Of a DNA stretch of 64,000 bases, positions 789-51,675 are shown in pieces. Under the pieces are notes generated by a model. That model worked only from the letters and a program-made list of their open reading frames with translations, was not told the origin of the DNA and did not search any database. Each line of letters starts with the position of its first letter. Within the stretch, counting starts at the first letter, position 1. This stretch comes from Balanoglossus misakiensis. Taxonomy: Eukaryota > Animalia > Hemichordata. The position numbers and the translations under genes were made by a program. The stretch lies in contig CM082594.2 of NCBI GenBank assembly GCA_040954595.2, positions 6,964,840 to 7,028,839 on the forward strand, read 5' to 3'.

Positions 789-937
789 TTAAAAGTTCTT
801 CAACATTGCTTCCTGGGAGTTTTCTTCGCCTGAATCCAGGGTGTAAGGCGGCGCTTGAAGATCGGCGAGTCTCTCGGCAACCATCCGGGCCACAGCTATT
901 TTAAAGAACTTTTCCCATGCCGATTTTTCTGAAACGT
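789..937 (-). CDS. Gene A, last coding exon (C-terminal pro-region DVSEKSAWEKFFKIAVARMVAERLADLQAPPYTLDSGEENSQEAMLKNF*)
   Basis: Acceptor TTTCCTGTTGTGTTACTTTGCAG|AC (AG at 939-938). Read in phase 1 to match the 7297 donor, it is open for 149 nt to TAA at 791-789 and encodes a protein-like amphipathic helix plus acidic tail. The join to the 7297 exon (about 6.36 kb intron) is inferred from phase and from the parallel with gene B. Confidence 0.75.
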
Positions 938-3900
938 CTGCAAAGTAACACAACAGGAAATCTAGTTGTAAGATCTTGTCACCATGAATTAAAAAACAAT
1001 GTCACGAAAGCCAGAATTCGTTTCCGTGGCAACTACAACTAATTCGCACAGGCTCAGCGGTAAGGGTAAAGACATGTACACAAATGTTCGCGCGTAATAT
1101 GTGTTATCGACTAATTTTGCTTTTGAAGATTGCGCGATCACGGGCGAAACCTTTCGTGTCGGAGACGAAAACAGCATCGCACTTTTAATTGTCGGCCACG
1201 CCAACTTATACAGATTATGTTTTTACACTCTCAGAATAAGCTTCGGCGCCAGTTTCCTGTTGAGCCCATCCGAATGATCATTGAACAGTAAATAGAAAAA
1301 ACATCTCGCGGTTTGTCATCATTCCCCGCAAATTATCGTCCTATTAACTAGACCTAAATTTCTCACCCGGCGTTACCCACTAGGATCTAACACAGTCACA
1401 ACGGCTTAATTTGGCTTGATCGATCGGCCAATCCGACACTGAATCTGATGCCAGCAATCACCGCCGGCAAAGTCAGTTTGGATAAGTAAAATAATTCTAA
1501 CTCTGATTCCAATCCTAGCTTCTGTAAAGTCCGCAGACCATTGCTCTCCTCTCTACTCCACTCTTTGGGGTGAGCGTCCCGCCGGTAAAATTTAACAAAA
1601 TCGGAAACGGATGTGTCGACTGGCAATATATCAATTTTGGTCAATATTTATACCATCGTACTTTTCGCTCAAAGGAAGCGTGCAGTAAATGTGTCGTTAC
1701 AAGTGAATGTTTCTTTGAATGTCAAGAAAGAGTTCCTTGGATACCCGATGTGTGAATGGTTTCTCGGCGCTGATAACACTCTTTCGAGTTTCAATTAATC
1801 AAATGCGGGACAGCATCAGGAAATATATCAAAACCAGAAAACACTATGCACATATTATTTTTATGCATCAAATATTGTTAAAGAAGGTGAACGGTCCATT
1901 TTAATACTGCCTGAATATCCTGCAATAAGAAAGTGTGGATTGGATCAATAAATTATACATAATTAAGCTCTGTTGCTAATGACTGCAGTTCGTAGTGATA
2001 TGCAAATAAGCAAAAGTCAGCAATAAAATATTCTACTTAGTGTGGCGTTATGTCCAAACTGTGTTTTCCTTGAAAATTATTTCACAACGTGTTCATATTG
2101 ATTTTGGATACTTTAAAGACTTTTAAAGTACCAAGTCACATGATGTGGCGAACGTGTGTTTTGGTTCAGGGTGTCCGCCTGTATAGAATAAAATTGTTTA
2201 TGAGATATTGTCACATTTCTGAACACTCATTAGCCATGGTGATTATTCTCATGTCGAGAACAGACTCTTGTGAAGTTTGCCGACCTGTTGATTATTTTAA
2301 CAGACACCGTTAAACAGCGGGTGACACATTTTGCATGTCGGTAGCTGTACCTGCCATAACTTTAGAGCGCGACGTGATTTTAACATTATCTTACAAATGA
2401 TCTGCAGTGTTGTCAACCTATGAAGGCATGAATATTTAACAAATTTTGGTCTGTTTTGTGATCTTAAGGTATGAAAGATTTTCTGACTTAAAGATATTTT
2501 TTCGTAATGGTATGGCTCTTCCATGAAACATCGATTCAGACAATCTTAACTTTAAAGGTAATTCATGTACCAGTACAGGTACTGCAAGAACGATAAATTG
2601 TAACATTGAAAAACCTTTGTACCGCCTAAGTGACATATAAGAACCCTCAATATTCAAATTTTCTTTCTTTTGAAATGGCATTTTCAATCCCAGAAAGGAG
2701 ATACATGTCAACATTTTATTATTACGCGTTAAAACCTTTTCATTTCGCACTTACATTGACGGTGTTCCTCTTATCTCTGATAATTTGGAGTGTTGATGAT
2801 ATAGGTTTATCTCTATGGTGACATATTTTGACGGGTTTTGGGCTATTCTCGAACTAAAACACACAAACTAGTTTTGTAATAGCTTGTCATATCTGCATTC
2901 AAATGAATGACCTGGCACCATGTTATTACTCGCAAATATCGTTCTTTCAACACGAACCGTAAATCTCAGTTTTCATAAAATGGCGGTTCCTTTCTCAATT
3001 GTTCCCTGTCAATGATTTCATCACACAGTTTTATCATCGATTTTTGTATTACAATTTCCTGAATGTCAAATGATAATTTTGGAAGCGTTCTGTTTAAGGT
3101 TTTACAATCACCTGAGAGTGTTTTATTGATTGTCAACTTTCAATCAGCCTTGTTTTGGCGCTATAAAATATCACATCATTACAATACGTCCTCATTAAAC
3201 GATTTTGAATAGTTGCACACACACACAACGTGCCACCATGAACTCAATTTTGTCAGACCTCACTCCTATCTTCTTGATCTTTGAGATAAGCTCTCTTAAA
3301 TAGATATGACTGGCTGAGAAAATGAATGAATGAATAAATGATTGAATGAAAAGGTTAGAGAAATGTATAGTAATATATAGGCTGATCGCGAAAAATGTCT
3401 TGTGTTATTGCAGCCTTTAGGGAGATGGGACATGACGTTATGATTTTAAGATTTTATAGTTTGCTCATCTCAACGCACCCATATTGGAAATTGATTGTCA
3501 TTTCAGCACAATTTTATAGAACCAGCGTTGCCAGGCAACATTCTGTAAGCGTTCCACTGCGCCCAGGGATATCTAAAAGGAAATAGCAATGGCATGCGTG
3601 ATAAAAAAAAAACATGGATTGAATTTAGCGCTATTACCAACGCCTTTTCTTTGTAAAATTGCACGGCCTGTGGGAGTTTGTTTGGATCATATTGATAATT
3701 ATCATATCTACGAAAGATCATAAGATCAATATAGCCTTGACAATATCTGTCATATCTCGTCCACATCTAAAATTGACGTCCACCCCTTTGAATTTACGTA
3801 ATGTGATTTTTCTCGCCATTTCCACATTCCGACAGCTGGTATAGCAATATGTTGAGGTCTCAGATTTGTACGAGCAAAGCTGTAATTGTTTCAGATGGAC

Positions 3901-4550
3901 TTGATAATAGCATTCATTATTCAATGTTAAAAATGTAGAACGCTGTGATGTAATAAAATATGGAATATCCAAAACTGAATGAATCATTTTAACGAAAAGC
4001 CCATTTTCCCTTAACAATGAATTATGCTGTGATATTCAGAAGATACCCAAAAGGAACTAAATGCAGAAGCCATTAAATTAGACCCTCAAACAACGGGCCT
4101 CTCGGGTGCATTAAGGCAAAGTATGGGCGCGTACGATTTGAGTGCCAACGGGGGAATACCCTGAAAATGCCAAGACCCACAGAACAGCTTGCATGAATGT
4201 TATCTCTGAGACCTAAGCTCGTCTGTTCAGGTAGATCTAGAAAACATACTAGATGAAGATACGGTGCCTTGCAAATTGTGATAACGGTTATTTCAGCGTA
4301 TTCAATTGAGTTATTTCCGACCCAAATCGTCCGATAAAGTGTCTGTGTGTCAGTCTGCTATCACTCATGATACAGTCGACTTCAAAGCGCATCGTTTTGA
4401 CAAAAAGTGGATATTTCCCCAATGAATACAAGCCATGTCGTATTTAAGAAACTTGTTGAACGATACGAATGTACACAGAGACAAAGTTATGATACACATA
4501 TACATGGGTAATACGTACACAAACATATAGACAGATATGTGGATAAAGGA

Positions 4551-4606
4551 TACATACATACATACATACATACATACATACATACATACATACATACATA
4601 CATACA

Positions 4607-4636
<30 letters not shown>
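4551..4636. repeat. (TACA)n microsatellite in gene A intron 2
   Basis: Perfect TACA array; it explains the MYVCMYVC pseudo-ORFs. Confidence 0.97.
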
Positions 4637-4637
<1 letters not shown>

Positions 4638-5725
4638 GAAATTGAATTCAACGAAAATATAAACTGTTTTAGGTTGGAGGGAAACGATATCAGATTACTG
4701 TATATTTAAAATGTCTCCCTGTCGAATATTGACTTCGTACCGTATTATTAATGATTTGCCAATGGTTCAATTTGTCGCGACTGCTTTTTTACTCGCAAGT
4801 AACCTCTTGAGGCAGTGACTAAAGAAAATTACATTTGACAAGATCCGATAGGAGACTATGTTTGGCTACTGAATCAAACATTTAAATGCTTGACAATGGT
4901 CTGATAACACAGGGAAAATGAGCTGGTTATCTTTTCTCAGCTATTATCACTGTTCCTGTACTTTTTTTGTTAAATGAAGCGCTCATGCTTATCCCGCTGG
5001 GTTTTAATAGATGTCCACTGTGTTCCCGTTTAAATTGAATCCAAAACCAGTAATTTGATCGTAAGTGCCAGTTATTAAATGTGAAAAGAGTAGAAATGAC
5101 ACCGTTGCGTAAATTATCGCTTCCGCTGACGCCGAACTTCATTTTCTTCAAATGCCACTATGAATTTTACGACAGCATTTAAAAAAAAAGAAAATCTCTG
5201 ATTGCTTTATTCTATTTTGTTACAGATACCAATCAAATCAATATAACACATTCTATTGATCTAATTCAGCACATTCCACAAAGCACAGTATTTTATGGCA
5301 TTTCTTCATTTAAACATTCTAAAATTCTAGTAGTATGTAGATCACAATTTTACTGAAAAGCTAGTGTCACTATTGGGTCAGCCACCAACCGTAGCCGGGC
5401 AATAACCATGTCAACAATAAGACAGTTTAGTGTTGCTTGAGTGTCGGTTTCAATTTCAAGAAATGTGAACACACCGCGACATCCTGTTGAGCGTTGAAAT
5501 TAAAGAAGTAATCACAGAGAGGCGATCGCCTATTCCCTTTTGATTGACCCATCATTTATTTCATTAGATAACCTTTGCCATGGTGATAAGTAAACCGCGA
5601 AGAAATTTGATATTTCTGATCACAGCTCATTGATTGTCTACCCATTAATGTTGATGTGAATGGAGTTCCGTCAATATATGGTAAAGTGAGACTAATAAAA
5701 CTTAATAAGGGTGTAATATTTCCTA

Positions 5726-6021
<296 letters not shown>

Positions 6022-7296
6022 TTAACAAAGAATATACTTAGGATTTCATTATCTGGAGCATGTGATAGCTAGCTGCCAGTTTAATTTTCATAATAGTCTC
6101 ATAAAGACTAGGCTTCGATCTTCCATGAATGGAATGATTTGAAAGACTTAATGTTTTGTAGAATCTCCACAAATTCAAAATGGTGTCTGTCGACTTAGTA
6201 ATATGTCATGAATTGAAGTATTTTTTCGACGAAAACTATGCAGAAAGTGGCAACAAATCTGAATAAATTGTTGGTAAGCGTTGATTTAGTCCAGTCACGT
6301 CTATTTCCTCTGTTTTCCTAAATTTATCATGGTATATCAAGTCTTCATAAACAGCCTGATCTTCTAATAAGTAACGTGACCTCCGATATGAATGTCCATC
6401 ATTCAAGTATTGACGTTTAATTTGGCAAATATTCCCAAGTTCAGGAACTGCGCTTCCTGTTCTTTCCATGGTGCATTGAACGTTAACTGGTCGTCTGCGT
6501 TTTTACTACCCTGTGATTTTAATCTCTTTCATTATACTGCCGCCCGAATCTCATCGTTTGTTCCTGATCATAAACTTATTGGTCGGAAAATGAAATGAGC
6601 GGCAAAGCGATTAACCTTCGGGTTTAGGCAGATCTTTGTGAAAGATTGGGTTTTATGAATTTGTGTGTCAAAAGAAAAAAAAATCGTCATGAGTGAATGT
6701 CAGATTTATTAAGCGACGTCCCTGTTCCCAGCACGTTAACTGGTCCCATAATCCACATTGACTGCATAATTGCCTTTTACGTTCCTTGTAATCATCTCAA
6801 AACAAACATTTTATAATACCGTTGTAATTTTTCATTTTCTCCCGAGACCATCTCTCACTGTGTTTGGGAACTTGTCTTTATGCCTGGTTGGTATGCACAT
6901 TAAAAGCAAATATCACTGAATATTAAAAATTGAAATGCCAGTATATTTTGCTTTATAATATCGTTTCAAGTAATACAGCACATTTATTACGTTTCCAATG
7001 CAAATATCTTGTATAATTATCTACATTTGTATCATGAACTATAGGTTTATGGCGCTCTAGTATGGAAATTCCCTGGTGAAATAATTGCATGTACAAGACA
7101 TTTTGTTTGACAATGACATGAAGACATTTACATGTCTCTTTGACGGCGTATAAAAAGAATAAGCGCCAACATGACGAAACGAACGGTGAATTGATTATCA
7201 AGAGCGCGAGACGGCAGTCGCGATCAGCAAATCTCTCCACACACACTTCAGTTCAGCCGCGGAACAAGCGGCAAGTACTCTGAAGCGATCGCTTAC

Positions 7297-7438
7297 CTGT
7301 CTTTTCTGCAGGTGCGCGTTTATATCCGGGTTTCCTGCCGCAGTACTCTGACCAGAAATCAAGACACGGGAGCCCACAATGCGAAACAGCCACTAGGGAC
7401 AGAAAGAGGAATAGTATAAACACTGCTTTGCTTTCCAT
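7297..7438 (-). CDS. Gene A, first coding exon: signal peptide + Cys-x7-Cys peptide GLPCLDFWSEYCGRKPGY + KR site (putative neuropeptide precursor)
   Basis: MESKAVFILFLFLSLVAVSHC has a basic n-region, a hydrophobic core and small residues at -3/-1, and is followed by a two-Cys peptide and KR. The acceptor is strong (long T run + GCAG, AG at 7484-7483; exon starts 7482, 44 nt before ATG). The donor is ACAG|GTAAGC (GT at 7296-7295) after 47 codons + 1 nt, so phase 1. Confidence 0.85.
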
Positions 7439-8069
7439 TATGAAGGTTTAATGATGGCGGCTATCGGCCCGTCGGAGGCAATCTGCAAAAAAAAAAAGAA
7501 CGCGGTTTTAATAGAATTCATTAAAAATCAATCACCTTAATATTGCTGCATTGATACCGGTTGATGCCTTCTCGGCACACTGTCAATGGTGATGCACGCA
7601 AGTTAAATTTCCAGACCGTCGGTTTTATTCTTAGCTACCTTAATCACAGTCAGGCTCTTAGTCTGCATGTGCAGTGAAGTACGCATCTCAGAAATGATCA
7701 TGTTCTTTAATGAATAAAACTGTTTCCTTGATTGTACTTCCTTTGCAACGGTTTTATTTCAATGGAGATATCACTTTACGTTACTATCAGCAAGATCTGG
7801 GAATGAAGGAGACAGCAAATGCTAGCATGTTTTGTGCTCCTTTTACACTCCTTTTCATGTCACCACGGACCAACATGTACCAGTATAAATGCCATCTGAA
7901 ACCAGATATTACTGCAGTGTGCATTTATAAAGTAATTTTTGTAGAAACTCGATTACGGATAAAAGAACCAAGAAAACCCATTTTTAAACATTATTGAAAT
8001 TCGAGAAATAGCTTCTGGTGCTAACATTTTATGGAAAAAAGTGAAACAGGATGAGGTGGGATCACTTAC

Positions 8070-8172
8070 CTCTCTTTTTTGACAAGTGGTTTTTTGTACT
8101 TCGTACTTCACACAGTATCCGCGTCTGGAAAGCAGCACTGGTTCAACTAAACTAATCTGCTTGTTTCAGCGT
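8070..8172 (-). other. Gene A, putative non-coding exon 1 (5' end approximate)
   Basis: Starts about 30 nt downstream of TATATAAA (8201-8194) and ends at the consensus donor GAG|GTAAGT (GT at 8069-8068). A 587-nt intron leads to the strong acceptor at 7483. Confidence 0.65.
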
Positions 8173-8193
8173 GGACCCTCTAGCTACTTACGC

Positions 8194-8370
8194 TTTATAT
8201 ATATGCGCACAGCGGAGAGGTACGGCAGAGAGACGCAGAGTCCTAAATGATGCGTGGGTAAAAGTCCCGTTTCCGCTAATATGTTTGTGTTGTGAGTCAG
8301 CACTCAGCCGACTTCCCATTGGCTGAGACGGCATTTCCTCACGCCTCGATGGGGAGTATTGGGTAATTGG
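8194..8370 (-). promoter_or_regulatory. Gene A core/proximal promoter: TATA box, AP-1 site, CCAAT boxes
   Basis: Minus-strand TATATAAA at 8201-8194, TGAGTCA (AP-1/TRE) at 8293-8299, and CCAAT (plus-strand ATTGG) at 8318-8322, 8358-8362 and 8366-8370, in a locally GC-richer segment. Confidence 0.6.
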
Positions 8371-10632
8371 CTAGGAGCTGCAAATAGGATGGCCGAGTGG
8401 CCGGCAGACATGAGCGTGCATTATTTCCTGCTAATACCATGATGATGATTATGATGTATGGAATTTAATATAAGTGGCATTTCTTTTTTTTTGTTGAAAA
8501 TTTATTTTATGCTGGCAAGTGCATGAGCAATTTCGACATAAATTTAGATAAGACACAGATGTGTATTTCGCACATCAGCGCACAAACTCAAATCCACGAC
8601 CGAAGAAAATACTGTTTTTCGACAATATTTCAAGTCAACAAATTTATTAAAAACGCGCATGGACTACCCACCATGTTTTGTTGTTCTTTGTGTTCTTTGA
8701 TGTATCCAACAGACCATGGTACTTCCTTCGCTGCCTCTACACACACCTACGCTTTCGGAATCTTCCTCTGACGTAGTTCTAATTGCCCTTAGCAACGTCA
8801 AAATCAGCCTGGAATCTACGTATCAACTGTAGTAGTTGCCCTAAGCATTAACAATTTCAATTGTTAAATTTGTTATTTTTTCAGTAAACAGAGTTTAAAG
8901 GCATTATCTTTTTTCAAGAGACGAGAGACCCTTGCAAGTTGCATCTTACATTTAAAGCGAGCTCCGGGACTCTCCCGCAGTTGTACGCCAAATGGGTACA
9001 CATACGTAACGAATATCGCCGACCGGACTATAAATTGACTTGTTTGCTGTTCAAATCAGTGCAATTAATTCCATTCGTAGACTGCTCCTAACGTTTCAAT
9101 CGTATAATCAATAAAATGAAGATTCTGTTAAAATTCCCCCTTAAAATATCCGCGTATAAATCGATATTGTATGAACTGCTGTGACGGAATGTAATTTTTA
9201 AAGGAAAGTGGCAACTGCCGGTGAATTGTCACTGACTTTGGATTTTTCAGTCTCCTGAGATTGCCACTTGCCACGTGATTGTTACCACGGATGGATGTTC
9301 TCTTGGAACAAGGTGACATTTCATGTGTGCGTGAATGTCGGACTGTGCCGGGATAAAAGCACACAAATGCCCTGACTCGTAAATATTTTACGACAATCAT
9401 ATTGCATCGCTGGATCGTACCTTGACCGTCAAATCTGCTGACGTTAAGGCCACTGGATTCGAAATTGTTCACTTTTCAATTCGAGGAGTTGCGCTTTCAG
9501 TAACCCGCGTGGAACCCGTCTCTTGGAAAGCGTCTGTCTCTCATCCTATTGTCCCCCCCAAGCGTCTGGAATAAAATTTGTTACCCGATCGTGAGTGTCT
9601 CCGAAGAACTCGATTTTATCTGAGCCAATAAACTGTTGTCACTATGCTGGTTCAATCAATAAACAGGAAAGCTAAGGAGAAAAATCAATGTGCAACGAAA
9701 ATTCCTGTGGCTACAATAATATTACCAGGCAATTTCTCACTAGTGAACATATGCATACATGTACATGTATCGCTGAACTGACAATATGGGCGTCCCAACC
9801 TTCACCGCGGATCGATTTACGCATGCGCCGCAGATACCACAAAAGTGGCCATTCAATGGAAGCAAAGAGTATAGTATATATGAAGACGATTAAAGGCTTG
9901 TCTGTCATATCATTAATGTAGATGTGTTCTAGCTCAAGCGTATTAACGTTTAGGTATCAAAAGTTCACAGTTTATTGTGACAGGATGTCTGAATGGGAGT
10001 TTGTCACAGAAGTTAAAATGTGGACATCAAAAGTTGTCATTCCTGCAGTGAATACTTATGTATAAAAATACAAGTACAGTAGCAACCTGACATTGTTTCA
10101 TTTGGAAGTCACCAATATGTTTACCTTGTGTTTCCAGTAAATGGCGGCCCGTTTGTGCGGGGAGAACGAATCTAAATGATTGATTAAGAACCTTAAAGGG
10201 GACAAGTGGCACGCCCTTTCTTTGGTAACCCGATATTTCGAGATTCGCGCTTTATAATGACCCAAACCGCATGGAAAATCGACTCCAAACAATGCAAAGT
10301 TGATTCATCAATTCCATTAGTTTGAACACACACTTGAAGTCATATTTGCAAAGAAAGTAAACGTCGGATGATTTGCTTCAACTTTTTCCGTGGATTTACT
10401 CAAATATATGCTTTATATACAAAGGTACTTGCTTAGTATCCCCCCTGCTGCCTGTGTCAAGGCTGAAAATGAGCCTCCCATTTATAAACATCATTCAACA
10501 CTAAAGCGCACGTCTGCTAATATTTGACTAATCTCATGTGTCGCGGGAACAGCGGAAAGTGGATATGACATGCACCTTTTTGAACATGAGCGCACTAATG
10601 ATGGCCACCGTCACGTTTACAAAGAGAACAAC

Positions 10633-10712
<80 letters not shown>

Positions 10713-10747
10713 GTCTGTCTATCTGCCTATCTATCTATCTGTCTATC
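10633..10747. repeat. (TCTA)n microsatellite with degenerate TCTG tail
   Basis: Direct reading; it explains the IYLSIYLS pseudo-ORFs. Confidence 0.96.
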
Positions 10748-25630: not shown

Positions 25631-28600
25631 TTGTATATTCACACTCTATCAGAAAGGTTCTAGCGAGAGTGACCTTATTCCTCTCCAACACTAATCCACA
25701 TTTTATCAATCATAAACCAATTACCCTCACATAAAAAGAACTCTTCCTAGAGGGAGGAAATCCATTTACCTCTTTGTACATCAGCGGCGGAGCGACTGAG
25801 ATAATAATATTTTTTTCAGTTATGACACATCTTGCCAGAGGCAATTCCCCCGAAGTTCATATGTGTCAGACTGACCTGTATATAGACATGATATTAAAAC
25901 ACACCCGCTATATTACATACCGTATGTATTGTATTAATATCATTCAGTATGGCACACAAACTTGTCTATAGATGGCTAATACAAAGTATTTATTATTATA
26001 GGCGATATAACAATGTTTAATATTGACAATAGATTAAATTGTGTTCGCTGTATGGAAAATAAATTAAGGGAATTTTCAGTTAATTAGAGCATGGACAACC
26101 ATCTTCAGTACTGTTCAGGAGAGATTTCTTAACTGTTGCGTCTACCTAGTATTGTACCATCAGGTTTATGTGAAAACTTCCTGCGACATTAACTCTTTTC
26201 ACAACAAGGTTTACTGGGGAACACTTTTAGCTCAATTCTTGCCACCACCCCTTCATAAGTACTGACACCTCCCTAAATATAAAATGACATAAACGAGGCC
26301 AACATATTAGCTCGTAAATGTTGTATAAAACAAGGTTATTATTTAGTCCAAGGTCTGGCATGTTGAAGAGAATTACCATATTAAAGAATATTATATTATT
26401 ACTTGAATCCTGCTCGCACAGATAGTACTTTTGCAAACGGCGAGGATGATGACTGTAACTGGAGACAACAGTACGTCACGCCGATAGGGAAACATGGTTT
26501 ACGCGATATTTGGGCGGGAGGAGGTATGACCGCCTTTCAGAAAATTCAGCGTGGCGCCAGTCATATTGTATCAAAACACAGTGTCAGATTACGCCCTGTT
26601 CACACTTTCAGGGCCGGTCAATCAGTTGTTTGTGACTTATTATGCGAGACCTGTTAACACTCCAAACAACAACCCTATCATATGAAGAGAGTCTTGCAGA
26701 TGTCGACCAGGGGTTGTGTTAGCCCTCGCAACTCATAAATAAACAAATACTTTGAAAATTTTCCATCTTCAATTCGATCACTAATGAGCAACATGTCTGT
26801 ATTGGCCAAGGTTTATTAAAACGTCTATTGTGTCTTAATATAATTATCATATGCCGCGTTCAGCTGTTCTGTACAGAGCCCCTCAATCACCAGGTTGATA
26901 TGAAGAAACTGTCACTAGAATATTCTCACTGCGCATGTGTAAGAAGGTTTCATTCAGGAACCGAAGTTGGTGGACAAACTTTTACAAAGCTGTCAAAGAA
27001 TTCACACCTTTGCATGATGGACAGTGAACGACTGAACCATGACCGAGTATCGACAAAGTATACTGCATACTTCGCGAGAAATATGAATGGTTTTCTCGTG
27101 TTTGTTTCATACGAGAAGCTGATTCTCATCGCCTGAGTAAATTACACCTAACATCGCACATCCCAGGAGAAATACAGTACATTTCAAAGGGCGACCCTTT
27201 TGCCCTGTCAGCTACCCATTGGGCATGTTTACATTTAAAAATCGAATGTTTCTCCCCTTCGATCGGCTAATGCGCGCCTTGATTACCGTGCCTTTTAATG
27301 TCTTCCAACAGTTTGAATATCATAGACACTGAGTCAGTTACAATGTTTGGCGCCAATTTAAACCGATGGGTGCATTCGTCGCCTATAGACTAACTCTAAC
27401 CTGTGAAAGTGTGGATTTGATAATAATTGGAAGCTAACGTACTATATTGACGTCATTAAGTCGCTCGGCCACAAACATGCTTTGTATCTTGCAATCACCC
27501 TGCGGGTCTCCGCCTGTGTATCTACTGGTGAAAACCTTGACCCTCCTGAACAGAATACAGCCCCTTTTCAATAATCACAGCGGGAGATCACATGTTTCTG
27601 ACACTCGCTGTGATCCGTATATGTGTTGCAGCACCCCCGGCTTGAAAGTATGATACAGCTATTTAATTACCGATACTGAAAGAAAGTATGTCAGCACCCT
27701 GTGTATAATATATATATGCCGTACTTCATGCCAGGTTGAAGCTGTCGTGGGGACCTATAGCCTAATTCGGCGATGCGTCTTGATGTTATCTTCCAGGAAT
27801 CGGTCAGTTGACAAAATACTGTCCTGTCCATGTATAGGGTTTGTCCACCTGATGTACCAGTATAATAGTAACCCCTATTATATTAACTCTTTTCACTGAC
27901 TCTGTAAACTTGCAAAGTAAATTTGGGAATCCCAAAATGTCTCTTGTAAGTGGTGTTCTGGTGCCAATAGTTGACTAGACACGGCGGTCTTATGTATCGC
28001 TGTGAAAGTTACATTATTTAATATATCTGTCACGTCTGAGTGGACTTACTTTAATCGAGGTCTTTTAATTAATACCAAAAATAATTGGTCTCTCGCTGGC
28101 CGTGACGTGCATAGTCTAGTTTGGCACATTCTTCGATTAGTAAATTTACTCGTCTTGGAGTAATTTAAAAGGATGTACGGTATACAGACAAAAATGTTTT
28201 TGTACGAAAAGTAAGGGAAACATATAGCAATCTGAAGTTAATTCAATATGGAGCGCATGTGTCAGATGGATGATTTGAATATACATAGGGATTTGTGTAC
28301 TGCGGTGATTAGCACAGTGTATATAAAATCGACATTGTGTTACACGACTTACGTAGCACCGACTAATAACTTATTCATAAATCCAGAAATTTCAATTTTC
28401 TTATGTAAGGATTTATTCTCTGCAGCTCGAATCAACTGTCCTACATGATGAGTCCTCATGAAGGATAAGCTTGACGTAAAAGGCACGTTTTAAGCAATCT
28501 ATAGCTTGCGTGTCACTCATTCAGCCCATAGTGGGGAGCTGGTCATTTGCACTGAGGGATTTGTCACTTCTTGTGCATTGAATTTGTCGTGTAGTACACA

Positions 28601-31600
28601 ATGCAATATTGGGAAGAATATGGAAGTGTTTGTGAAAGGATTTTCTTTCCAGCTTCCATATCGTTTAAGAGAAATTGCTTCTTGGAATTCTCCCCTTGCG
28701 CTCAATCATTTTCGCTGGGGTAACAGAAGAAGTAGGGTGCACTAGATACATGTGTAAGTCAGAAAATAGTCGCTTGCTGATTGTTCAAAGAAGGTATACT
28801 AAACAGCTCTTGACATGAAAGGTTCTAAACATAAATGTGTGTGTGTGTGCATGTACATGTACGGTATGTTTGCCTGTAATTAAGTTGCTAAATAATCACC
28901 CAAAGAAAAAGTTATGCACCATAACTTGCTTTTCAAAACAAAACTTTTAACCTGTGAGTTTTCGGGTGCATTTCTACGTATGCACAATATAAGCAAACGA
29001 TTGCTGACACAACTCAAGCATTGCTTCTGAAAAATGATTTCACTGGTGTGTGTTTACTGTTTTCAGACACTCAATTAAACCTTCGTTGGCAGTACAAGGA
29101 GTTTGCCCCTTGTAGCCAGAATCACTCAAGCTTGATGGTTTCTTTTGCAAAAGACTTCTGCGTACTAAAAAAACCCCGTAGCTTTAAGGATCATGCACGA
29201 ATCTCACCAGATTGGGATTACATTATCGGATAATCAGAAATAATCGCCACTAACGGCCAGCAAGCCACTGAAAAAGACCCTGCTCAGACTTAACAATGGT
29301 TGATCCCAAGGTGTATAATTTTGAAAGCAGCTTTCGTAATCATATAGCTTTTATGCAGAATTCTGCTTTAAACAACATTGCCATGAATAGTAAGTCCCCG
29401 TTCTGTCCCAGTATTGCCCATGATGCCAGACTGTTAAATATGTAAAGTCCGAATTGTGTTGGCGGTAAAACGATGGACATACACGTCTCAGAAGGGACAA
29501 TATTTCAGATCGACAAACGCTAATTCAAGTTGGAGCTGCTGGGAACAAAGTGAACTGATTTTTCAAGGAGACATAAAGGACACAGCTTTGTTGCCTCCAG
29601 TTGCTTATAGGCCTGAGGACTGTTTCAGTTTTGATCACAGGTGTACACGAGGTATATTGGAAGTGAAGGTAAAAATGACCCAAAGGGACAGATATATTCC
29701 ATGAGTCCGGATTTCAGGAAGTACGAATTAAAGGAAGGTAGAATTGACGTCGGAGACAGATTGTCTGAAGAATGAAATGCCCCCAAATCTTTTCTTGCTG
29801 TGTTTAAATAAAGTTTATGTGACTCCAGTGAAGGAGTACGGACGTTCAGCATCTCATTTTCAACTAAGTGAATAATTGAAAATCTCCTTGTGGGGTTAAC
29901 ATTTAAATTTTGCTCCATCTGAAGTAACTTGTATTTGTGAGTGTTGGGAAAATGGCCAAATTTGCCAAATGTTACATGTGGGATTTGTCTTTCTAATTTC
30001 AAGAAAATATCTAAATTCAGTAACTTTCATATGCCTTCAACAATATGATATGAAAATACCATTTAGTGTGACCTGATATGGTAAATAAGAAGGGGAGAAT
30101 CTTTCAGATTAGCAAAACCTGAATACTCGTGTTAACCGACCATACATGTAGTATATTGATATGCATTGATACATGCCGCCCTGTGTAGTACGAGTAGATA
30201 ATGTGATTGGAAATAAACCAGGTCCATATTTTTGCATGTTTCAAAAAGAATAATTAAGTAGTTCCATCACCGTCAATTGTGCAAGATATCATACACAATA
30301 TAAATGTGTAATGGTCTTGCGAATAGATTCATTAACTCAGTACATAACAGGTTTATTTCAAAGAACATCTCATGCTGTCAGTGCGGCCCGATGAGTTAAA
30401 AGGTGTCTAAAAATATCACATTTGTGATCTTGATATGCTTTCATGGTCTTCGCAGAATGTCGTAGCATGATTTATTCACGATCTTGCATTTGTCAAAGGA
30501 ACATAATGCCAGATTTCATCAGTTTTGCCGAAGAAAAGCAGTGAATATCTCGTTGACAGCCGCGGCTTTTGAAAATGTATGTGCATCGCAGCGGTGTCAC
30601 AGGCTCGGTAGAACTATGTTAAACTTGATGAATGCGCTCAGTATCACGGGCGGCTTATCACGGATGTCAACAAAGTCGGTCACATTTCTTCACAGCTTAA
30701 TCGTTGTATTTTGCGGAGAGATTTACGACGTTGTCCGGCTTACCGTCTCGCTGAAAAGCAATCGTGATTTGAGCTCGGATGATGGGATTTAAACAAATTG
30801 TTGTATTATCAATATTTTAAGAGATCACCCGGCGATCCGCGCAATCAAGATTTATTCCTATAAGGTGTGAAGAAACTAGTTTGGTCTAGCCGCGGTGAGA
30901 TGATTTAATTTAGAGAGTGCGTGGGCCCAGAAGTGATATATTTCGTATTCCTGACTGAGCAACCAATGAAAGCACCGAAGGGATAACTTATACATTATGC
31001 CGTACACGCACTAGTTATTAATCGACTGAGATAAAGATGCCGCAATAATAGCAAGAATATGAATACACCAGACTAGATTTTAACCTCTTTCTCGCACGGT
31101 CTCGAGGAGTTCGGACATGGGTCCATTAACTTTACCGACGGCATGTATGGAACAAGGGCATCGCCCAACTAAAAAAGAATCTAACCCAATGAACAAATTC
31201 CACTGCAGTGCACTATAGCCGTAAATCTTGAAAGTTTCTTGTTCATATACTGAGTTTTGAAACTGCTCACCGACAGAAACCTCGAGACAATTATGCCGAT
31301 ATCATCGTACAGAGACCTTGCGGATTATACAGTGCTCTCTCGATTGACGTTCATTTTATTGAATCTTTTGTACGGCAACCAAAATGGCAATGTTAATCCC
31401 GCGTCACAGGGAGATAGAATGTCATTTGCTCTTGCAAATGCCGGTGTAAATCCGTTTATTGATAACGGAATTACATATAGTTAACGATTTTGTTGAGCTG
31501 TTCCCCTTTTCATTAGAGCACAAAGACTATGTGTTGACGCTTCTCAAGTTGTTAAAAGTTGGTTTATGCGACCGATGTAATAACTGTCGGCTGTCAGGGA

Positions 31601-32361
31601 TGACGAAATGAAATTCATATTGTACGCGACAGACTTCGGACTAACCTTTTAAAGCTTTTTGCTATGATGCCAGAACACAAGGATATATATTCCGGTGACC
31701 AGTTCCCAATGCTAGGGCAAATGAATAATTACCCTTTCCAGTAAATTCCATTACTGCACTGGCATAACCATGCCATCGCTGTTCATTCTGTCAGAAAAGA
31801 CTGATGCTTAACCAAAAAGACATTCAACGCCCGTGGTATACTGATATCAAAATGCACATCCTGCAGGGACCGGGGCTTTTAAGGTCTGCCATAAATGTGG
31901 CATGCTGACTTCAACTGTCCGCCAGGACGAACAGCTGTTGACATCTTGTGGGTGCTTTTATCCATTCTCCGGAAACAAAAAACCCAAGGCAAATCCATCC
32001 GTGATATTCTCCCGTGGAGTCAAAGTCATACATATATGAGCGATCACAACAGAATGAATGATAATACCCATATGCCCGTGCTTAGGAAGTATAACATAGT
32101 ACTATTTTATTCATTGAACACACAAATCGTTGAGTTACATTTGACAGAAAATCAGTACCTCTAACCCAAATTAACAAAGCAATCAAATCAGGCTGCCCAA
32201 AACACAAAAATTAAGATCCTATGTAATTGTGTAAACTAGTGTAAACGTAATATCTATCGAAATGTCCAGTCAAAATACAACGCATAGTTTTTTTTCTTCT
32301 CTGCCATTGAATTGTTTTCCCTGTACACTATTTGTATAGTATATCATATTGGATATATAAT

Positions 32362-32367
32362 TTTATT
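32362..32367 (-). terminator. Candidate polyadenylation signal of gene B
   Basis: AATAAA on the minus strand about 690 nt after the stop at 33056, a similar distance to gene A. Confidence 0.35.
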
Positions 32368-33055
32368 GATATGATGAAGTCTGAACGTTGGTGACATAAC
32401 CACTTGAAAGTTCATCAAAACATAATTTCACGTTGTAGGTAGTAGTAAGCTTGGGGAAAAAAGAAAACATTAATTTCACAAATTCAGAAGTTTTTCATTT
32501 TATGTTCAGCCTGATGTATTATTCTAGATCTGTGTGTGAGAGTCAGTTGCTTTAGACTAATTGAGCCCAAGAGAAATTCTATAAGTGATGGTAACCCTGT
32601 TTCGAGACGTCTAAGCTTGTTGTTCCTGGCAAATGGAGGGGCTGACTGGAACCTAGCTGTAGCTTTCAGCAGACATATCTGAATGCAAAATTACCTGGGG
32701 GAAAAGATCAAACAAGTATATGTATTAGAAGTGACGTTTGAGTAGTAGTGACGGTGCATGCACACGGCCCGCAGACAATCGACAATCACCGTGTATCAGT
32801 AAAAGCGTATAGGTTCGTGCCAAGATTTGATTGACAGCGAACAAGGGATAATATCATTTGCATAATGGGTGACGTCTGTGCAGAAATGTCCTACGTCGGG
32901 TTGGAAAGCTGCGAGCCAGAGTGAGAATCTATAGCCGACGTCATCACTATCGTGCACGCAAATGCAAACGTCACGACTTAATGAGCAGGATGATGGAATA
33001 TGAGAATGGGCCAAGTAGAGACGTTAATACGCACCTATGATTAAACTGTGACTTC

Positions 33056-33204
33056 TTACTTATCCTCTGCAAATAAGCCTTTGTTTTCCTGTTGGTCGGG
33101 AGAGTTCGACAGTCTTGACATTTCTGAATCAAGAACTTGCAAGACATAAGGGAGAAGAAATTTCTGTAGTTCTGCGTTCCTTTCTGGTGATGTGGCCGAT
33201 TTGT
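33056..33204 (-). CDS. Gene B, last coding exon (DKSATSPERNAELQKFLLPYVLQVLDSEMSRLSNSPDQQENKGLFAEDK*)
   Basis: Acceptor TTCTCTGCAATTATTTTACAG|AC (AG at 33206-33205). The phase-1 frame is open for 149 nt to TAA at 33058-33056 and gives an amphipathic helix plus acidic tail like gene A. The intron of about 3.84 kb is inferred. Confidence 0.8.
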
Positions 33205-33283
33205 CTGTAAAATAATTGCAGAGAACATTAAGTGATCGGTATTATACTCCTTTCCCTTCTCTCCAACAACTTTGACTATGGCA

Positions 33284-33285
33284 TC

Positions 33286-33317
<32 letters not shown>

Positions 33318-33370
33318 CCAGTGCCTGCCCGCCTGTCTGTCTCTCACTCTCTCTCTCTCCCTCTCTCCCC
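33284..33370. repeat. (TCTG)n + (CT)n microsatellite near the 3' end of the gene B intron
   Basis: Direct reading. Confidence 0.9.
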
Positions 33371-36300
33371 TACCTCTCAGCAGCTTCGAATGTGACTTGA
33401 CTGCCGAAAGTCACTCTATTCTCTATCAAACTTTACATTATGTTACTTCATAGGTCAGTGCGTTACTGCACGTGACACTCCCTGGTTATTCAAACATCCG
33501 GGCATTCGTTTTTGCTCCTTGGCAGGGTAACTTCCTGTGCCTACTGCAACTGAAAGGCAGTCTTTTTGATACTTGCGCTGTTCGCTCTGAGTGCTTACAT
33601 GTACTTTCCGTACCCAGAGGCAAGACTGTGTTACAGTTTACTTCCCATCGATCAGCAGAATGGGTTCTTTTGATTAGTGGAATAACAATGCAGCTATTTC
33701 TAAATTAAAGCGTGATATTTAAAAAAATGTTTTTCAGAAAGAGTCCTGAGGAATATCAGCAGCTTTGGTACAGACTGATATTTACAGTGAGCACTTTGGA
33801 TCAGTAAAACCTAAAATACAGGAAAAAGAAATAAATAGCCGAACAGTTTAAATATTTACGTCTGTCTTTAGAATTTCTTGGCGACATTCAACCCATAATC
33901 CATAACCACAGATAGATAATGGGTGGGAAACTTTTAAGATTTTTCGCTCAGTCGAGAAAAATGTGGAATTTTTCCATTCCTTACATAAGAACTTTACTTC
34001 AGAGACTGGCGGCTAATACGTCTGACATTTGAAATCTTTACTGAAAAATTAGGAAGCTGAAATTTATTGTGCTTCTACCGTACATCATGATTAGTCTGTG
34101 ATTCAAGAGACGATAGATGCGTTCCATACAAAGATACCATTCAATGCATTTTCCTACTAACGCATGCATGCTGCCTCGACTTTTGACTTTATTTTGCTTA
34201 AATAACTGCAATTTTCGGCTGAAGATAACTATTTCGGAACAGACCTGAAATAACAGAAAGTCAATAGAAACGATGGAATTTGTACGATATTGTTAGAAAT
34301 GCCAAACGACGGCCCCGGAAGAGGTTTATTTTACCCCTTCCTTCTCAGAGAATAGCAATCTGATTTGTTGTCAAGCGGGCGGGCGTATAGCCGTAAAACG
34401 TATTCATAAAGAGCAAAGTTAGGGAGCTCAATCTTCTGAACCACTTACTGCACAGGGTCGTTAAGGAGTTAAACAGACCCACCATCTTTTGTCGCGTTAG
34501 AAGTCTGCAAATTTTGATTGTGTTCTGGTGTTGTCCATTCAAATTTCTGTCATTAATGTGTCATATTTTGGAATGAATCACTCTTTAAAAAGAAAGACAC
34601 GCCAATTTAGAAAAAGAAATCCGCACCAAGATTAATTAAGTTATAAACAGCTTACATTTCTGTCATCTCGTTTACCACATTTGCCGATGCATCATTAAAC
34701 AAGATAACTGTTGATTTAATGTTGTGAGCTTCCATTTTCAGAACATTAAAGTTTTCGAGTACATCAACTGGGCGATAAAAGAGTTAAATACTTTAGCTTG
34801 GAGCAATCACACCTCTGGGATATACATGTAAAATTGGTTGAGTTGAAACAGGCAACTCGAGATATAAATAGTTGTTCTTCGGAGTATATCACCGCATTTA
34901 CTTTCAAAGTACCGGTACAGTAGGCGATTACGTCGCGACTAAAACAACATTTAAAACCCTCGTTTTTTGAAAGTTTCGAAATCAGAAAGATAGCAGAGGT
35001 CAGAAAGGGAAATGGAGTTAGAGTGGATGTGAATATCACTTGGTGGTGTCTGATGGGGACGATCGTCTCCCTCTTAGTTTTAAAGACAATTGCTTGGATG
35101 TTTATGGAGTTTTGTCCGAATTAGGCGGGCGTGTTTCACGGCTGGCTCGCGGTGCTCACGTTAATCAGGAACCCGTGTTCGAAGAAACACTTTGTTGCGA
35201 CGGGCGCCTGTGATCACACCGTAAAAGGCAGGCTGTCTGATGAGCTTTTGAGAAGATAAATGAGCCTGTGTTAACTGTTTGCGAAGATTAATTAAGCCGG
35301 CGTGGTTGCTCGATTGATCACGTCCTCAATTCAGGAACACTAATCCCGACCAGCCACAGATAGTAATTGGTGGCGATTTGATATTATTGTACACACAAAA
35401 ATTACTACCTTTAGGTGATAGAATGGTAGGGAGGAAGCGTGATAAAATAGTGGTTTAAGAGCGTTAAGCTCCAAGAGATCCTCAGGAAATTATGCTGTAC
35501 CTACAATTTGAATGGGGTTTTGTTGCACATAGCGTCCTTAGAATAGTTAATTGGGAAGTGACGTAGATGCTACCGGATATGACGAACAAGAGTACAGATA
35601 AACTTATATGCAAGACGAGTCTGTCTATCACTTATGGACATTAAATAATGAAAGACGTAGCCTTAAAGTGTGTGTGTTTAAGTGAAAAACCATGAATGTT
35701 TAAAATCCCTCGCATTGATATGCTTGTAACATCTACTCGATCCCTGAGGGTGTTTGACACAGGATGATCCGGGACAACTTGTCACATTGACAGCACGTGG
35801 GCGCCGGAAACTCATCTTCTTCAGAAAGAACTTATTTGAGTGTCTACCATTCAAAAGGACGAAACTAATAAGTGAAAGTTTTTTTGTCTTGTCACACAAC
35901 TGTACTATGGAACCACGTTTTCAACAAAAGGCTACAGATGTTAACACTTTGAAAACTCTTACTTTTAAATAAGGGAGACTCTATGTCATGCAATGTAAAC
36001 TCCAAAGTACTTCAACAGGCCTATGAATAAATTTGGCCAGTTCATTGGCCGACGTACACAGGACACAACTGAAATGACACAAACATTCCCTTACAGTAAG
36101 CAGAAATTTATACAGAGGAAAAATTAATATATTCACCAAGGGAGAAAAACGGGTTGGGGTCACATACTGAGCAAATATGGCCACTGAAAAAGATTTGAAG
36201 CTACTTCGCCATGTTCTTTTGCAATATTGTAATTGAAAAAACCCACAGACTGATAACCAACGAAAAATATAGGGATTTTCCTCCTGCTTTCCCTATCCTG

Positions 36301-37043
36301 AGTTTGAAGTACCTGTATATTAGCCTGTTTTACAGCAATTACCATCTCCTGCACTGATTGAGTGTTTGAGTGCTCGCATAGGAAACGTGGCCTGTTCCGC
36401 TCCGGCAACGACAGAATGGCTTGGCGTTACGACAGAACGACTGTTTGAAATCTCCGTAATGGCATTTTTCTGTCGTACATGCAACGCCCTCTACACAAGA
36501 ACTGTAAACAGCAGATCTCGACTGATCGGAAATCACGATATAAGCCAGCGAACTACAACTCAAGAGCTAAAGGTTACAAATCTGAGAACGCCTCTGGCCT
36601 GTGTGTTCAGTAAAGTGGTATGGGGGCCGTGCCCGGAGACTAGTGCTTTCCTACTGCGAATGATTCTAAAAAAATACTCACGAAGCAGAAATTTATCAAT
36701 ATGGAACACACTGTGACGGCGGTGAACCCTGCGTGTCGTAACACTATCCCCTCCCGCCATTTTCTGGTAGCGATGGGAAATGATTCTCGTGTCTTCAGCA
36801 CACAAGAGATAGTTCTTGCGGCTACGTTTCAGTTCTTTAATGGTCACACCGTTGTTGGCGTCAAATACAAGCCAGTATTGTTTCCCCCCAAGAAGACCGT
36901 TGCGATGTACGTTTTAAAAATAAACCACGTCGTCGTGAGAGGGTTTGGGGGGTCAGATCTGGTGACATACATGTACAACCACAGCATGTCTATGCAACGC
37001 ACGACGGGAACGACAGCATTATGTAAATATCTTTGGTTATTAC

Positions 37044-37221
37044 CTGCCCTCTTTCCTATTCCTATATGGTGAAATTGGTTATATTTGAGTTTATGGTTTC
37101 CACGTTTGTCCTCGTCGTTGTCGTTGCCCGGCCTCCAGAAGATGTCCCTATTCGGTTGCGCGTTTATGCAAACGACAATAGCTATGAGAGCTACCATCAG
37201 ACCCAAAGTAGCCGTGTGCAT
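37044..37221 (-). CDS. Gene B, first coding exon: signal peptide + QPNRDIFWRPGNDNDED + KR + GNHKLKYNQFHHIGI-amide + GKR (putative neuropeptide precursor)
   Basis: ATG at 37221 in ACAACATG context. MHTATLGLMVALIAIVVCINA is a typical signal peptide, followed by KR and G-KR processing sites. Acceptor TTTCCCTTTATGTTTACAG (AG at 37272-37271, 49 nt before ATG). Donor GCAG|GTAATA (GT at 37043-37042) after 59 codons + 1 nt, so phase 1. Confidence 0.88.

Positions 37222-51642: not shown

Positions 51643-51675
<33 letters not shown>

What the first reader, a model, noticed from the sequence alone, without database searches (positions are those of the whole stretch)
789..37221. Tandem pair of likely paralogous, unassigned neuropeptide-precursor genes sharing one exon blueprint but carrying very different mature peptides
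Seen in sequence: both genes are on the minus strand, with acceptors 44 and 49 nt before the ATG and 21-aa signal peptides. Each peptide directly after the signal contains P..D-(I)-F-W (GLPCLDFWSEYC vs QPNRDIFWRPG) and is followed by a dibasic site. Both have a phase-1 intron completing an Asp codon (G|AC), a last exon of exactly 149 coding nt, and AATAAA about 0.7 kb past the stop. Established: intron position/phase and tandem linkage are standard evidence of neuropeptide homology when peptides have diverged. Inference: an old tandem duplication gave one disulfide-looped peptide and one linear amidated peptide, i.e. a candidate undescribed peptide-signalling family. The ORF track shows neither complete protein because the last exons are under 60 aa and 4-6 kb away.
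Basis: partly seen in the sequence, partly recalled or inferred. Interest (0 to 1): 0.88.

Follow-up and report, generated by a model that had tools for sequence, protein, structure and literature searches.

The report
Two unassigned acorn-worm peptide-hormone genes
Two neighbouring small genes, likely from an acorn worm, are predicted to make secreted signalling peptides (one ring-shaped, one amidated) that matched no described family in our searches; one gene is conserved in another acorn worm, but whether the two are old duplicates is only about even odds.

Summary
The sequence features are as reported: two minus-strand, spliced precursor frames (A 96 aa, B 108 aa) with predicted 21-aa signal peptides, phase-1 G|AC junctions and 149-nt last exons. 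B is a real conserved gene: an uncharacterised Glandiceps talaboti protein (XP_077993988.1) matches both of its coding exons (58 of 108 residues identical). So the window is likely an enteropneust hemichordate and B's junction is supported. The conserved peptide is the second one, GNHKLKYNQFHHIGI-amide (12 of 16). A has strong gene signals but no relative was found; its A-side searches were insensitive. Paralogy is unproven. A and B show no significant similarity after the signal peptide, and the intron sits differently against the peptides. Adjacency, a matching three-exon layout and a P-x-x-D-(F/L)-W match between A and the orthologue's first segment keep it at about even odds. No known family's defining features were met. 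Papers read state that hemichordate bombesin-, tachykinin- and elevenin-type receptors lack known ligands, so both peptides are ready candidates. No transcript or peptide evidence was obtained.

The parts
8196..8203 (-). Gene A TATA box (CCAAT-type words at 8322, 8362, 8370 upstream)
8070..8172 (-). Gene A predicted non-coding exon 1 (5' end approximate), donor G|GTAAGT at 8069; intron 1 of 587 nt
   Evidence: no transcript
7297..7482 (-). Gene A exon 2: 44 nt UTR, ATG 7438, 142 coding nt; its acceptor is the strongest of 6706 AG sites in the window; donor G|GTAAGC
7376..7438 (-). Gene A predicted signal peptide, residues 1-21
   Evidence: hydrophobicity scan; SignalP not run
7322..7375 (-). 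Gene A predicted peptide GLPCLDFWSEYCGRKPGY (two Cys, 7 residues between), closed by KR at 7316-7321; alternative 12-residue amide (7340-7375) if cut at RK
   Evidence: processing inferred
938..7296 (-). Gene A intron 2, phase 1, 6359 nt (predicted)
789..937 (-). Gene A last coding exon, 149 nt, acidic C-terminal pro-region
   Evidence: rank 1 of 356 candidate acceptors
64..69 (-). Gene A candidate poly(A) signal AATAAA (ATTAAA also at 49-54)
   Evidence: near chance level
55259..55266 (-). Gene B candidate TATA box
   Evidence: tentative: such TATA+donor pairs average 1.3 per simulated window
55127..55236 (-). Gene B candidate non-coding exon 1 (5' end approximate), donor AAG|GTAAGA at 55126; intron 1 would be 17,856 nt
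   Evidence: tentative
37044..37270 (-). Gene B exon 2: 49 nt UTR, ATG 37221, 178 coding nt
   Evidence: 55% identity to P0001 over 58 aa, E 1e-18
37159..37221 (-). Gene B predicted signal peptide, residues 1-21 (11 of 21 identical in the orthologue)
37108..37158 (-). Gene B segment 1, QPNRDIFWRPGNDNDED: likely a spacer or weakly constrained peptide, not amidated; P, D, W, R and the last D kept in the orthologue (5 of 17); closed by KR at 37102-37107
37054..37101 (-). Gene B predicted mature peptide GNHKLKYNQFHHIGI plus amide-donor Gly; closed by KR at 37048-37053; 12 of 16 identical in the orthologue
33205..37043 (-). Gene B intron 2, phase 1, 3839 nt
   Evidence: (the orthologue is colinear across the junction)
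33056..33204 (-). Gene B last coding exon, 149 nt, conserved C-terminal pro-region predicted helical
   Evidence: 52% identity over 46 aa, E 6e-10; helix 61-90 in a low-confidence model of the orthologue
32362..32367 (-). Gene B candidate poly(A) signal AATAAA

Best explanation
Gene B is a spliced gene conserved in another acorn worm and gene A a likely real neighbour; each is predicted to encode a secreted precursor that would be cut at basic pairs into a signalling peptide of no family we could assign, likely acting on G-protein-coupled receptors, and the two may (about even odds) be old tandem duplicates. Steps: (1) shown: open spliced frames, splice signals, B's orthologue. (2) Inferred from standard neuropeptide processing: the signal peptide is removed; prohormone convertases cut B at KR39-40 and KR57-58, carboxypeptidase trims, and PAM turns Gly56 into an amide, giving GNHKLKYNQFHHIGI-NH2. 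The conserved C-terminal helix probably serves sorting or folding. (3) Inferred: A gives a disulfide-looped peptide (Cys25-Cys33), most likely the non-amidated 18-mer GLPCLDFWSEYCGRKPGY cut at KR40-41. The RK35-36 site is followed by Pro, which usually blocks convertases (own knowledge), so the 12-residue amide is the second option. (4) Untested: release from neurons or endocrine cells and the receptor. If paralogous, the shared relic is the P-x-x-D-(F/L)-W segment after the signal peptide, cyclised in A and decayed towards a spacer in B, whose active peptide is then a separate unit.
For: B exon 2 finds P0001 at E 7.5e-12 among 1.84 billion representatives = XP_077993988.1, 'uncharacterized protein LOC144447780 [Glandiceps talaboti]'. 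P0001 matches both B exons in the window and nothing else below E 1.8. Both KR sites and the amide Gly are kept; the second peptide is 12 of 16 identical against 5 of 17 for segment 1 and 11 of 21 for the signal peptide. Gene A: TATA, CCAAT words, a strong exon-1 donor, the window's best acceptor, a strong coding donor; it is one of only two strict exon candidates with a signal peptide in 64 kb; its last exon ranks 1 of 356 by a score that ranks B's supported exon 1 of 1473. No family match in Pfam or PDB sequences; the ESM Atlas gives only sub-0.9 leads, for B mostly assorted neuropeptide precursors. The hemichordate S. kowalevskii expresses the processing enzymes PC2, GPC and PAM (PMC10508912, passages). 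No other gene between or beside them reached a Pfam cut-off (150 of 205 frames of 65 aa or more scanned).
Against: No transcript, peptide or receptor evidence was obtained. No homologue of A in two word-based searches. The hemichordate neuropeptide catalogues most likely to name these genes could not be read (PMC3666674 not held; Mirabeau and Joly 2013 not tried), so 'unassigned' may be wrong.
Confidence: 0.65

Rival explanations
1. One reading: A and B are tandem paralogues whose homologous mature peptides are the P..D..FW segments, one cyclic and one linear and amidated.
For: Adjacent, same strand, same three-exon layout with TATA-to-donor distances of 134 and 140 nt, same intron phase, 149-nt last exons; the orthologue's first segment (IPLEDLW) matches A's LPCLDFW without a gap, p 0.0008 signal-anchored. 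Doubtful hit P0002 also has FW there.
Against: B's first segment has no amidation signal and keeps neither Gln1 nor RPG in the orthologue (5 of 17). B's own segment against A gives p 0.25. The best A-B alignment (KR-anchored, p 0.055) offsets the introns by 5 codons. The orthologue has 48, not 49, residues from the matching Asp.
Confidence: 0.12
2. A and B are unrelated peptide genes that happen to be neighbours; the shared layout is the common build of small neuropeptide genes and the 149-nt match is coincidence.
For: No significant similarity at protein level or DNA level (best blastn E 0.2). P0001 does not detect A by tblastn. Phase-1 G|A(C/T) and AATAAA at 0.7 kb are common. Exon 2 coding lengths differ (142 vs 178 nt).
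Against: Several independent coincidences (adjacency, exon sizes, P-x-x-D-(F/L)-W, poly(A) distances within 31 nt at 2.7%) are easier under old duplication. Tandem origin is documented for diverged peptide genes such as SS/UII (PMC7536072, passage). This rival is compatible with the rest of the best explanation; its weight is the complement of the paralogy odds.
Confidence: 0.45
3. One or both are divergent members of described families whose hemichordate precursors are missing or named in sources we could not read (bombesin-, tachykinin-, allatostatin-A/galanin-type for B; elevenin/CCHamide-type for A).
For: Hemichordate BN-type (PMC12002301), TK-type (PMC6880623) and elevenin-like receptors (PMC10175484) are stated to lack identified precursors; AstA-type receptors reach hemichordates (PMC9263205). 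B has N-Q-F...H-(I/L), reminiscent of bombesin's N-Q-W...H-L-M (sequence in PMC12002301). A has a two-Cys loop next to the signal peptide, like CCHamide-1 (10.1101/129783 section 7).
Against: Defining motifs, cysteine spacing and intron positions are not met (see membership test). No Pfam or PDB hit to those families at E up to 10, though HMMER filters drop weak matches.
Confidence: 0.3
4. Gene A is not an expressed peptide gene (chance signal-peptide frame, pseudogene, or a secreted non-neural peptide such as a defence peptide).
For: No homologue found; no transcript seen.
Against: Promoter, three exons, best acceptor of 6706, intact frame and top-ranked last exon co-occur; the searches were insensitive (one search missed P0001).
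Confidence: 0.15

Closest known systems
XP_077993988.1, uncharacterized protein LOC144447780 [Glandiceps talaboti] (P0001)
   Same: Likely orthologue of B: 58 of 108 residues identical, both KR sites, amide Gly, second peptide 12 of 16, C-terminal helix.
   Different: Segment 1 diverged (5 of 17; no N-terminal Gln, no RPG); 106 aa; annotated only as uncharacterised; its gene structure and neighbours could not be seen.
Bombesin/GRP/NMB-type precursors (chordates, echinoderms; PMC12002301, parts 1-2 of 9 and passages)
   Same: About 100-aa precursor, one amidated linear peptide of 13-15 residues, a phase-1 intron; B's N-Q-F...H-(I/L) loosely echoes N-Q-W...H-L-M.
   Different: BN peptides lie next to the signal peptide and are split by the phase-1 intron, with further C-terminal introns; B's peptide is second, unsplit, and lacks PRXN, GXLM and RIFGPXX motifs.
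Elevenin and CCHamide/EP-type cyclic peptides (PMC10175484 passages; 10.1101/129783 section 7)
   Same: A single two-Cys peptide closed by a basic site; CCHamide-1 sits directly after the signal peptide as in A; elevenin is non-amidated with a short tail after the second Cys, like A's 18-mer.
   Different: Elevenins have 8 residues between the Cys and conserved D, F, P, R-G; A has 7, no inner Pro and G-R. CCHamides end in His-amide; A does not.
Echinoderm somatostatin-2 (ArSS2; PMC7536072 passages)
   Same: D-F-W inside a disulfide loop, as in A.
   Different: SS2 lies at the C-terminus of its precursor, has the FWK core, a 12-residue loop and a phase-0 intron; A's peptide is N-terminal with FWS, a 7-residue loop and a phase-1 intron.
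GnRH/corazonin-type precursors (PMC4772807 section 21; PMC4923880 passages)
   Same: B's segment 1 follows the signal peptide, starts with Gln and contains W-x-P-G, as in starfish GnRH.
   Different: No G-KR after it; Gln, Pro-Gly not kept in the orthologue; conservation lies in a second peptide.

Membership tests
Neuropeptide/peptide-hormone precursor (general class) | N-terminal signal peptide | tested here: met
   Hydrophobic core and -3/-1 residues in A and B; helix 3-21 in the orthologue model; SignalP not available
Neuropeptide/peptide-hormone precursor (general class) | Peptide bounded by basic cleavage sites and more conserved than its flanks | tested here: met
   B: KR-peptide-GKR, 12 of 16 against 5 of 17. 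A: basic sites present, conservation untested for lack of an orthologue
Neuropeptide/peptide-hormone precursor (general class) | Expression in neurons or endocrine cells; mature peptide detected; receptor activated | not testable with these tools
   No RNA run was listed; needs in situ, mass spectrometry, receptor assays
GnRH/corazonin (B segment 1) | Single peptide after the signal peptide ending in Gly plus a dibasic site (amidated) | tested here: not met
   WRPG is followed by NDNDED-KR; feature from PMC4772807 section 21
GnRH/corazonin (B segment 1) | pGlu and W-x-P-G conserved among orthologues | tested here: not met
   The orthologue has IPLEDLWRQ; no Pfam GnRH hit
Bombesin-type (B peptide 2) | Peptide adjacent to the signal peptide and interrupted by a phase-1 intron | tested here: not met
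   Peptide is second; the phase-1 intron lies after the closing KR; feature from PMC12002301
Bombesin-type (B peptide 2) | PRXN and GXLM-amide or RIFGPXX-amide motifs | tested here: not met
   Absent in B and P0001; motifs
Bombesin-type (B peptide 2) | Activates a BN-type receptor | not testable with these tools
   SkowBNR1/2 are stated to lack an identified precursor
Tachykinin (B peptide 2) | FXGLM-amide (deuterostome), FXGXR-amide, or echinoderm XXG(L/I)F-amide C-terminus | tested here: not met
   Ends F-H-H-(I/L)-G-I-amide; motifs from PMC6880623 (abstract, 80 passages)
Allatostatin-A/buccalin/galanin group (B peptide 2) | Y/FXFGL-amide or L-amide C-terminus | tested here: inconclusive
   Only (I/L)-G-I-amide resembles it, and canonical Y/FXFGL is restricted to panarthropods (PMC9263205 passages); no Pfam galanin or spexin hit, spexin only at 0.82 in the Atlas; a likeness of layout to preprogalanin is recalled, not tested
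Luqin (B) | RW-amide peptide and two C-terminal Cys 10 residues apart | tested here: not met
   No Cys after the signal peptide in B or P0001; feature from PMC4772807 section 27
Elevenin (A) | Two Cys with 8 residues between; conserved D, F, P, R-G | tested here: not met
   7 residues between, no inner Pro, G-R instead of R-G; feature from PMC10175484
CCHamide/EP (A) | Cyclic peptide, amidated, His-amide end in CCHamides | tested here: inconclusive
   Position after the signal peptide fits CCHamide-1; no His-amide; echinoderm and lophotrochozoan forms also lack the His, so not excluded
Somatostatin/AstC, MCH, urotensin II (A) | Cyclic peptide at the C-terminus of the precursor; phase-0 N-terminal intron (SS/AstC) | tested here: not met
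   A's peptide is N-terminal and the intron is phase 1 after it; features from PMC7536072 and PMC4772807 section 12; C-terminal position of UII is recalled
Vasotocin / NG peptide-CCAP (A) | Neurophysin domain in deuterostome invertebrate precursors; NG motif or 4-residue loop | tested here: not met
   No Cys after residue 33 in A; features from PMC4772807 section 20 and PMC10175484
A and B as one paralogous family | Significant sequence similarity | tested here: not met
   (after-signal p 0.055-0.34; only the signal-anchored orthologue test gives p 0.0008)
A and B as one paralogous family | Intron at a homologous position and phase | tested here: inconclusive
   Same phase and same distance to the stop, but different position against the peptides and the best alignment
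A and B as one paralogous family | Conserved linkage in related genomes | not testable with these tools
   No eukaryote genomes are served; no A orthologue found

The most novel reading that the evidence does not exclude
A is the missing deuterostome ligand of the elevenin/CCHamide/endothelin receptor group and B the missing hemichordate bombesin-type ligand. The tandem pair would be a relic of the duplication that split cyclic from linear amidated ligands of that receptor clade, with B's active peptide moved to a second slot.
Probability: 0.08. Interest if true: 0.8.

Novelty: new member of a known kind. Interest (0 to 1): 0.5.

Why it matters
Hemichordates sit between echinoderms and chordates. 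Papers read here state that their bombesin-type, tachykinin-type and elevenin-like receptors have no identified precursors (PMC12002301, PMC6880623, PMC10175484; passages). This locus supplies two short peptides that can be synthesised and put on those receptors, with the active part of B pinned down by an orthologue. If one fits, a gap in neuropeptide evolution closes; if none does, it is a hemichordate-restricted signalling system. If paralogy holds, it is a case of a peptide gene swapping which segment is the ligand. Without those tests it is an ordinary kind of gene, one of many unassigned precursors in marine invertebrates.

Tried and rejected
No whole genome is held for the window. RNA runs for window 1-8200: none was listed, which is no evidence either way, so no reads were laid. 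Word-based protein searches: B exon 2 and A exon 2 among longer proteins, and both A exons among proteins of 24-107 aa: nothing scored; one search missed P0001, so these blanks are weak. P0002 (E 1.9e-4) resembles B's first 50 residues but was set aside as a probable chance hit: no G-KR, and a 97-residue tail rich in Gly/Ala/Arg/Pro (0.36 against 0.19 for window frames) that an AT-rich intron would rarely give; not excluded as a homologue. Metagenome scan with A: 1 of 595+ pattern matches passed, L001, a bacterial mobile-element ORF sharing GLPCLDFW by chance; rejected. PDB: thioredoxin (E 0.5) and multicilin (E 0.2), chance. ESM Atlas: best 0.88 for B, 0.78 for A, leads only. AlphaFold model of the orthologue: mean pLDDT 56, only signal and C-terminal helices; no fold search run. 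Rfam and tRNA scans: none. Splicing of B's last exon onward through the AA|GTAAGA site at its stop codon was rejected as the main form, because the orthologue ends at the same residue. Full-text searches for the peptide words and the LOC number found nothing relevant. Supplements of PMC6188537, PMC10508912 and PMC4772807 held none of the words searched; sequences shown as figures would be missed, bioRxiv supplements are closed, and PMC3666674 is not held. Earlier findings of this scan: nothing on this genome or sequence; eight unrelated notes.


Full report
Observation. Reading the four regions and translating the proposed junctions gives two open frames on the minus strand: A, 96 aa (7438-7297 joined to 937-789), and B, 108 aa (37221-37044 joined to 33204-33056). 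Acceptors lie 44 and 49 nt before the ATGs, both coding introns are phase 1 with G|AC, both last exons have 149 coding nt, and the first AATAAA lies 719 and 688 nt after the stops. One detail is wrong. In B the motif QPNRDIFWRPG is followed by NDNDED and only then by KR (39-40).

Are they genes? A strict acceptor-donor scan of both strands returned three exon candidates in 64 kb: B exon 2, B's last exon and a sub-exon of A exon 2. A signal-peptide scan listed 23 ATGs, of which those of A and B stand out by hydrophobicity plus basic pairs. A has a TATA box at 8203, CCAAT-type words at 8322-8370, a donor at 8069 and the strongest acceptor of 6706 AG sites, so a non-coding first exon is likely. 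B has a candidate TATA and donor at 55266/55126. This is tentative, since 3 such pairs were seen against 1.27 on average in 60 simulated windows (P 0.15). On acceptor strength alone the last exons rank 4 of 357 (A) and 44 of 1473 (B). With a coding term added they rank 1 of 356 and 1 of 1473, and B's choice is independently supported by an orthologue, which validates the score for A. No other gene reached a Pfam cut-off among the 150 longest of 205 stop-to-stop frames of 65 aa or more (one sub-threshold hit); shorter exons were not scanned. No Rfam or tRNA gene was found.

Relatives. HMMER over 1.84 billion representatives with B exon 2 gave two hits. P0001 (E 7.5e-12) is XP_077993988.1, 'uncharacterized protein LOC144447780 [Glandiceps talaboti]'. 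It matches B exon 2 (55% over 58 aa, E 1e-18) and B's last exon (52% over 46 aa, E 6e-10), and nothing else in the window below E 1.8. The window is therefore likely an enteropneust hemichordate other than G. talaboti (inference from one hit), and B's junction and stop are supported. Identity by region: signal peptide 11 of 21, segment 1 5 of 17, both KR 2 of 2, second peptide with Gly 12 of 16, C-terminal part 26 of 50. The second peptide is the most constrained part, as expected of the ligand. P0002 (E 1.9e-4) was left out of the counts as a probable chance hit. For A, two word-based searches, the Atlas and a metagenome scan found nothing real. The word-based tool also missed P0001, so this says little.

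Paralogy. Against: BLASTP finds no alignment between the exons. Local alignment of the spliced proteins gives p about 0.055, and the last exons share 4 of 49 residues and 49 of 149 bases in register. The global full-length score is significant (p 0.001) but includes the two signal peptides; without them p is 0.03. A B+orthologue profile against A gives p 0.18-0.34. The best alignment is anchored on KR-A and puts the introns 5 codons apart, so it cannot be added to the 149-nt match as evidence. The orthologue has 48 residues from the matching Asp, so that length drifts even between orthologues (its intron position is assumed, not seen). Asp at a phase-1 G| junction is about a 1-in-8 event and an AATAAA within 720 nt a 46% event. 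For: the genes are neighbours on one strand with 24 kb between B's poly(A) signal and A's TATA. They seem to share a three-exon layout (TATA-to-donor 134 and 140 nt), and the poly(A) distances agree within 31 nt (2.7% by chance, one of many features compared). The orthologue's segment 1 reads P-x-x-D-L-W, matching A's P-x-x-D-F-W without a gap (p 0.0008 in a signal-anchored shuffle test; B itself 0.25). That test is not independent, because the W was already seen in B. I put paralogy at about one half.

Mechanism. By standard processing (established knowledge; PC2, GPC and PAM are expressed in S. kowalevskii, PMC10508912 passages), B would release GNHKLKYNQFHHIGI-NH2, a non-amidated segment-1 peptide and a C-terminal piece that the orthologue model shows as a helix (pLDDT 60-75 there, mean 56). 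A would release a Cys25-Cys33 loop, most likely the 18-mer ending PGY, because the nearer RK is followed by Pro; the 12-residue amide is the alternative. Action through GPCRs is inferred from the class. Seven perfect TGACGTCA sites against 1.17 expected (0 of 100 shuffles) fit activity-regulated transcription, but no genome-wide background was available.

Known families. No Pfam family or PDB chain matches. GnRH/corazonin fails on amidation and conservation (features from PMC4772807 section 21; PMC4923880 passages). Bombesin fails on peptide position, intron and motifs (PMC12002301 parts 1-2 of 9 and passages). Tachykinin (PMC6880623 passages) and luqin (PMC4772807 section 27) fail on C-terminal motifs. 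The allatostatin-A/galanin group is inconclusive (PMC9263205 passages). For A, elevenin fails on Cys spacing (PMC10175484 passages); somatostatin-2 shares DFW but differs in position, core and intron phase (PMC7536072 passages); MCH and NG/vasotocin fail on precursor layout; CCHamide/EP is not excluded (10.1101/129783 section 7). The unassigned starfish precursor Arnp21 has a similar size and two basic sites, but two amidated peptides (PMC4772807 section 34 part 2); its sequence was not seen. Other papers were read only as passages or outlines and added nothing specific (PMC6188537, PMC5818035, PMC6586643, PMC11521371, PMC8557429, PMC9400282).

Novelty. Full-text searches for the peptide words and the LOC number found nothing relevant, and topic searches listed no hemichordate-wide precursor catalogue (listings only). 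Three supplements held none of the words. The 2013 catalogues were not seen, and sequences printed in figures are invisible to these searches, so a described S. kowalevskii counterpart is possible (my estimate: one in four). Verdict: real locus, new members of a known kind, family unassigned, B's ligand corrected, paralogy open. Interest 0.5, because the peptides make stated gaps in hemichordate receptor-ligand pairing directly testable, while unassigned precursors as such are common.

Noticed in passing
window 17766, 27448, 40894, 42040, 56545, 61067, 61550: Seven perfect TGACGTCA (CRE-type) palindromes against 1.17 expected; 0 of 100 shuffles reach 7. Three lie upstream of B's candidate promoter, two in its first intron, two between the genes. 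No genome-wide background.
   Followed up: partly
window 33054-33062 (minus strand): A donor-like AA|GTAAGA overlaps B's stop codon; an alternative splice here would change B's C-terminus. The orthologue ends at the same residue.
   Followed up: partly
window 55974-56204: A 105-nt tandem repeat, 2.2 copies, 92% matches, about 0.7 kb upstream of B's candidate TATA box.
   Followed up: no
window 4550-4636, 5804-5923, 10633-10747, 33286-33316, 51648-51717: Tetranucleotide and CT-rich microsatellites (ATAC, TACA/GACA, ATCT).
   Followed up: no
window about 55231 (minus strand): A short upstream ATG frame (7 codons) at the 5' edge of B's candidate first exon; it depends on where transcription starts.
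   Followed up: no
P0002 residues 10-52: An unnamed protein with signal peptide, P...FW, D-K-R and K-L-N...H-L-G in the order of B (E 1.9e-4); probably chance, but a distant relative read into an intron is not excluded.
   Followed up: partly
L001 248-7302: Bacterial element with ORFs that look like an integrase, a Fic-type protein, an excisionase-like protein and a toxin-antitoxin-like pair (by eye); unrelated to the finding.
   Followed up: no
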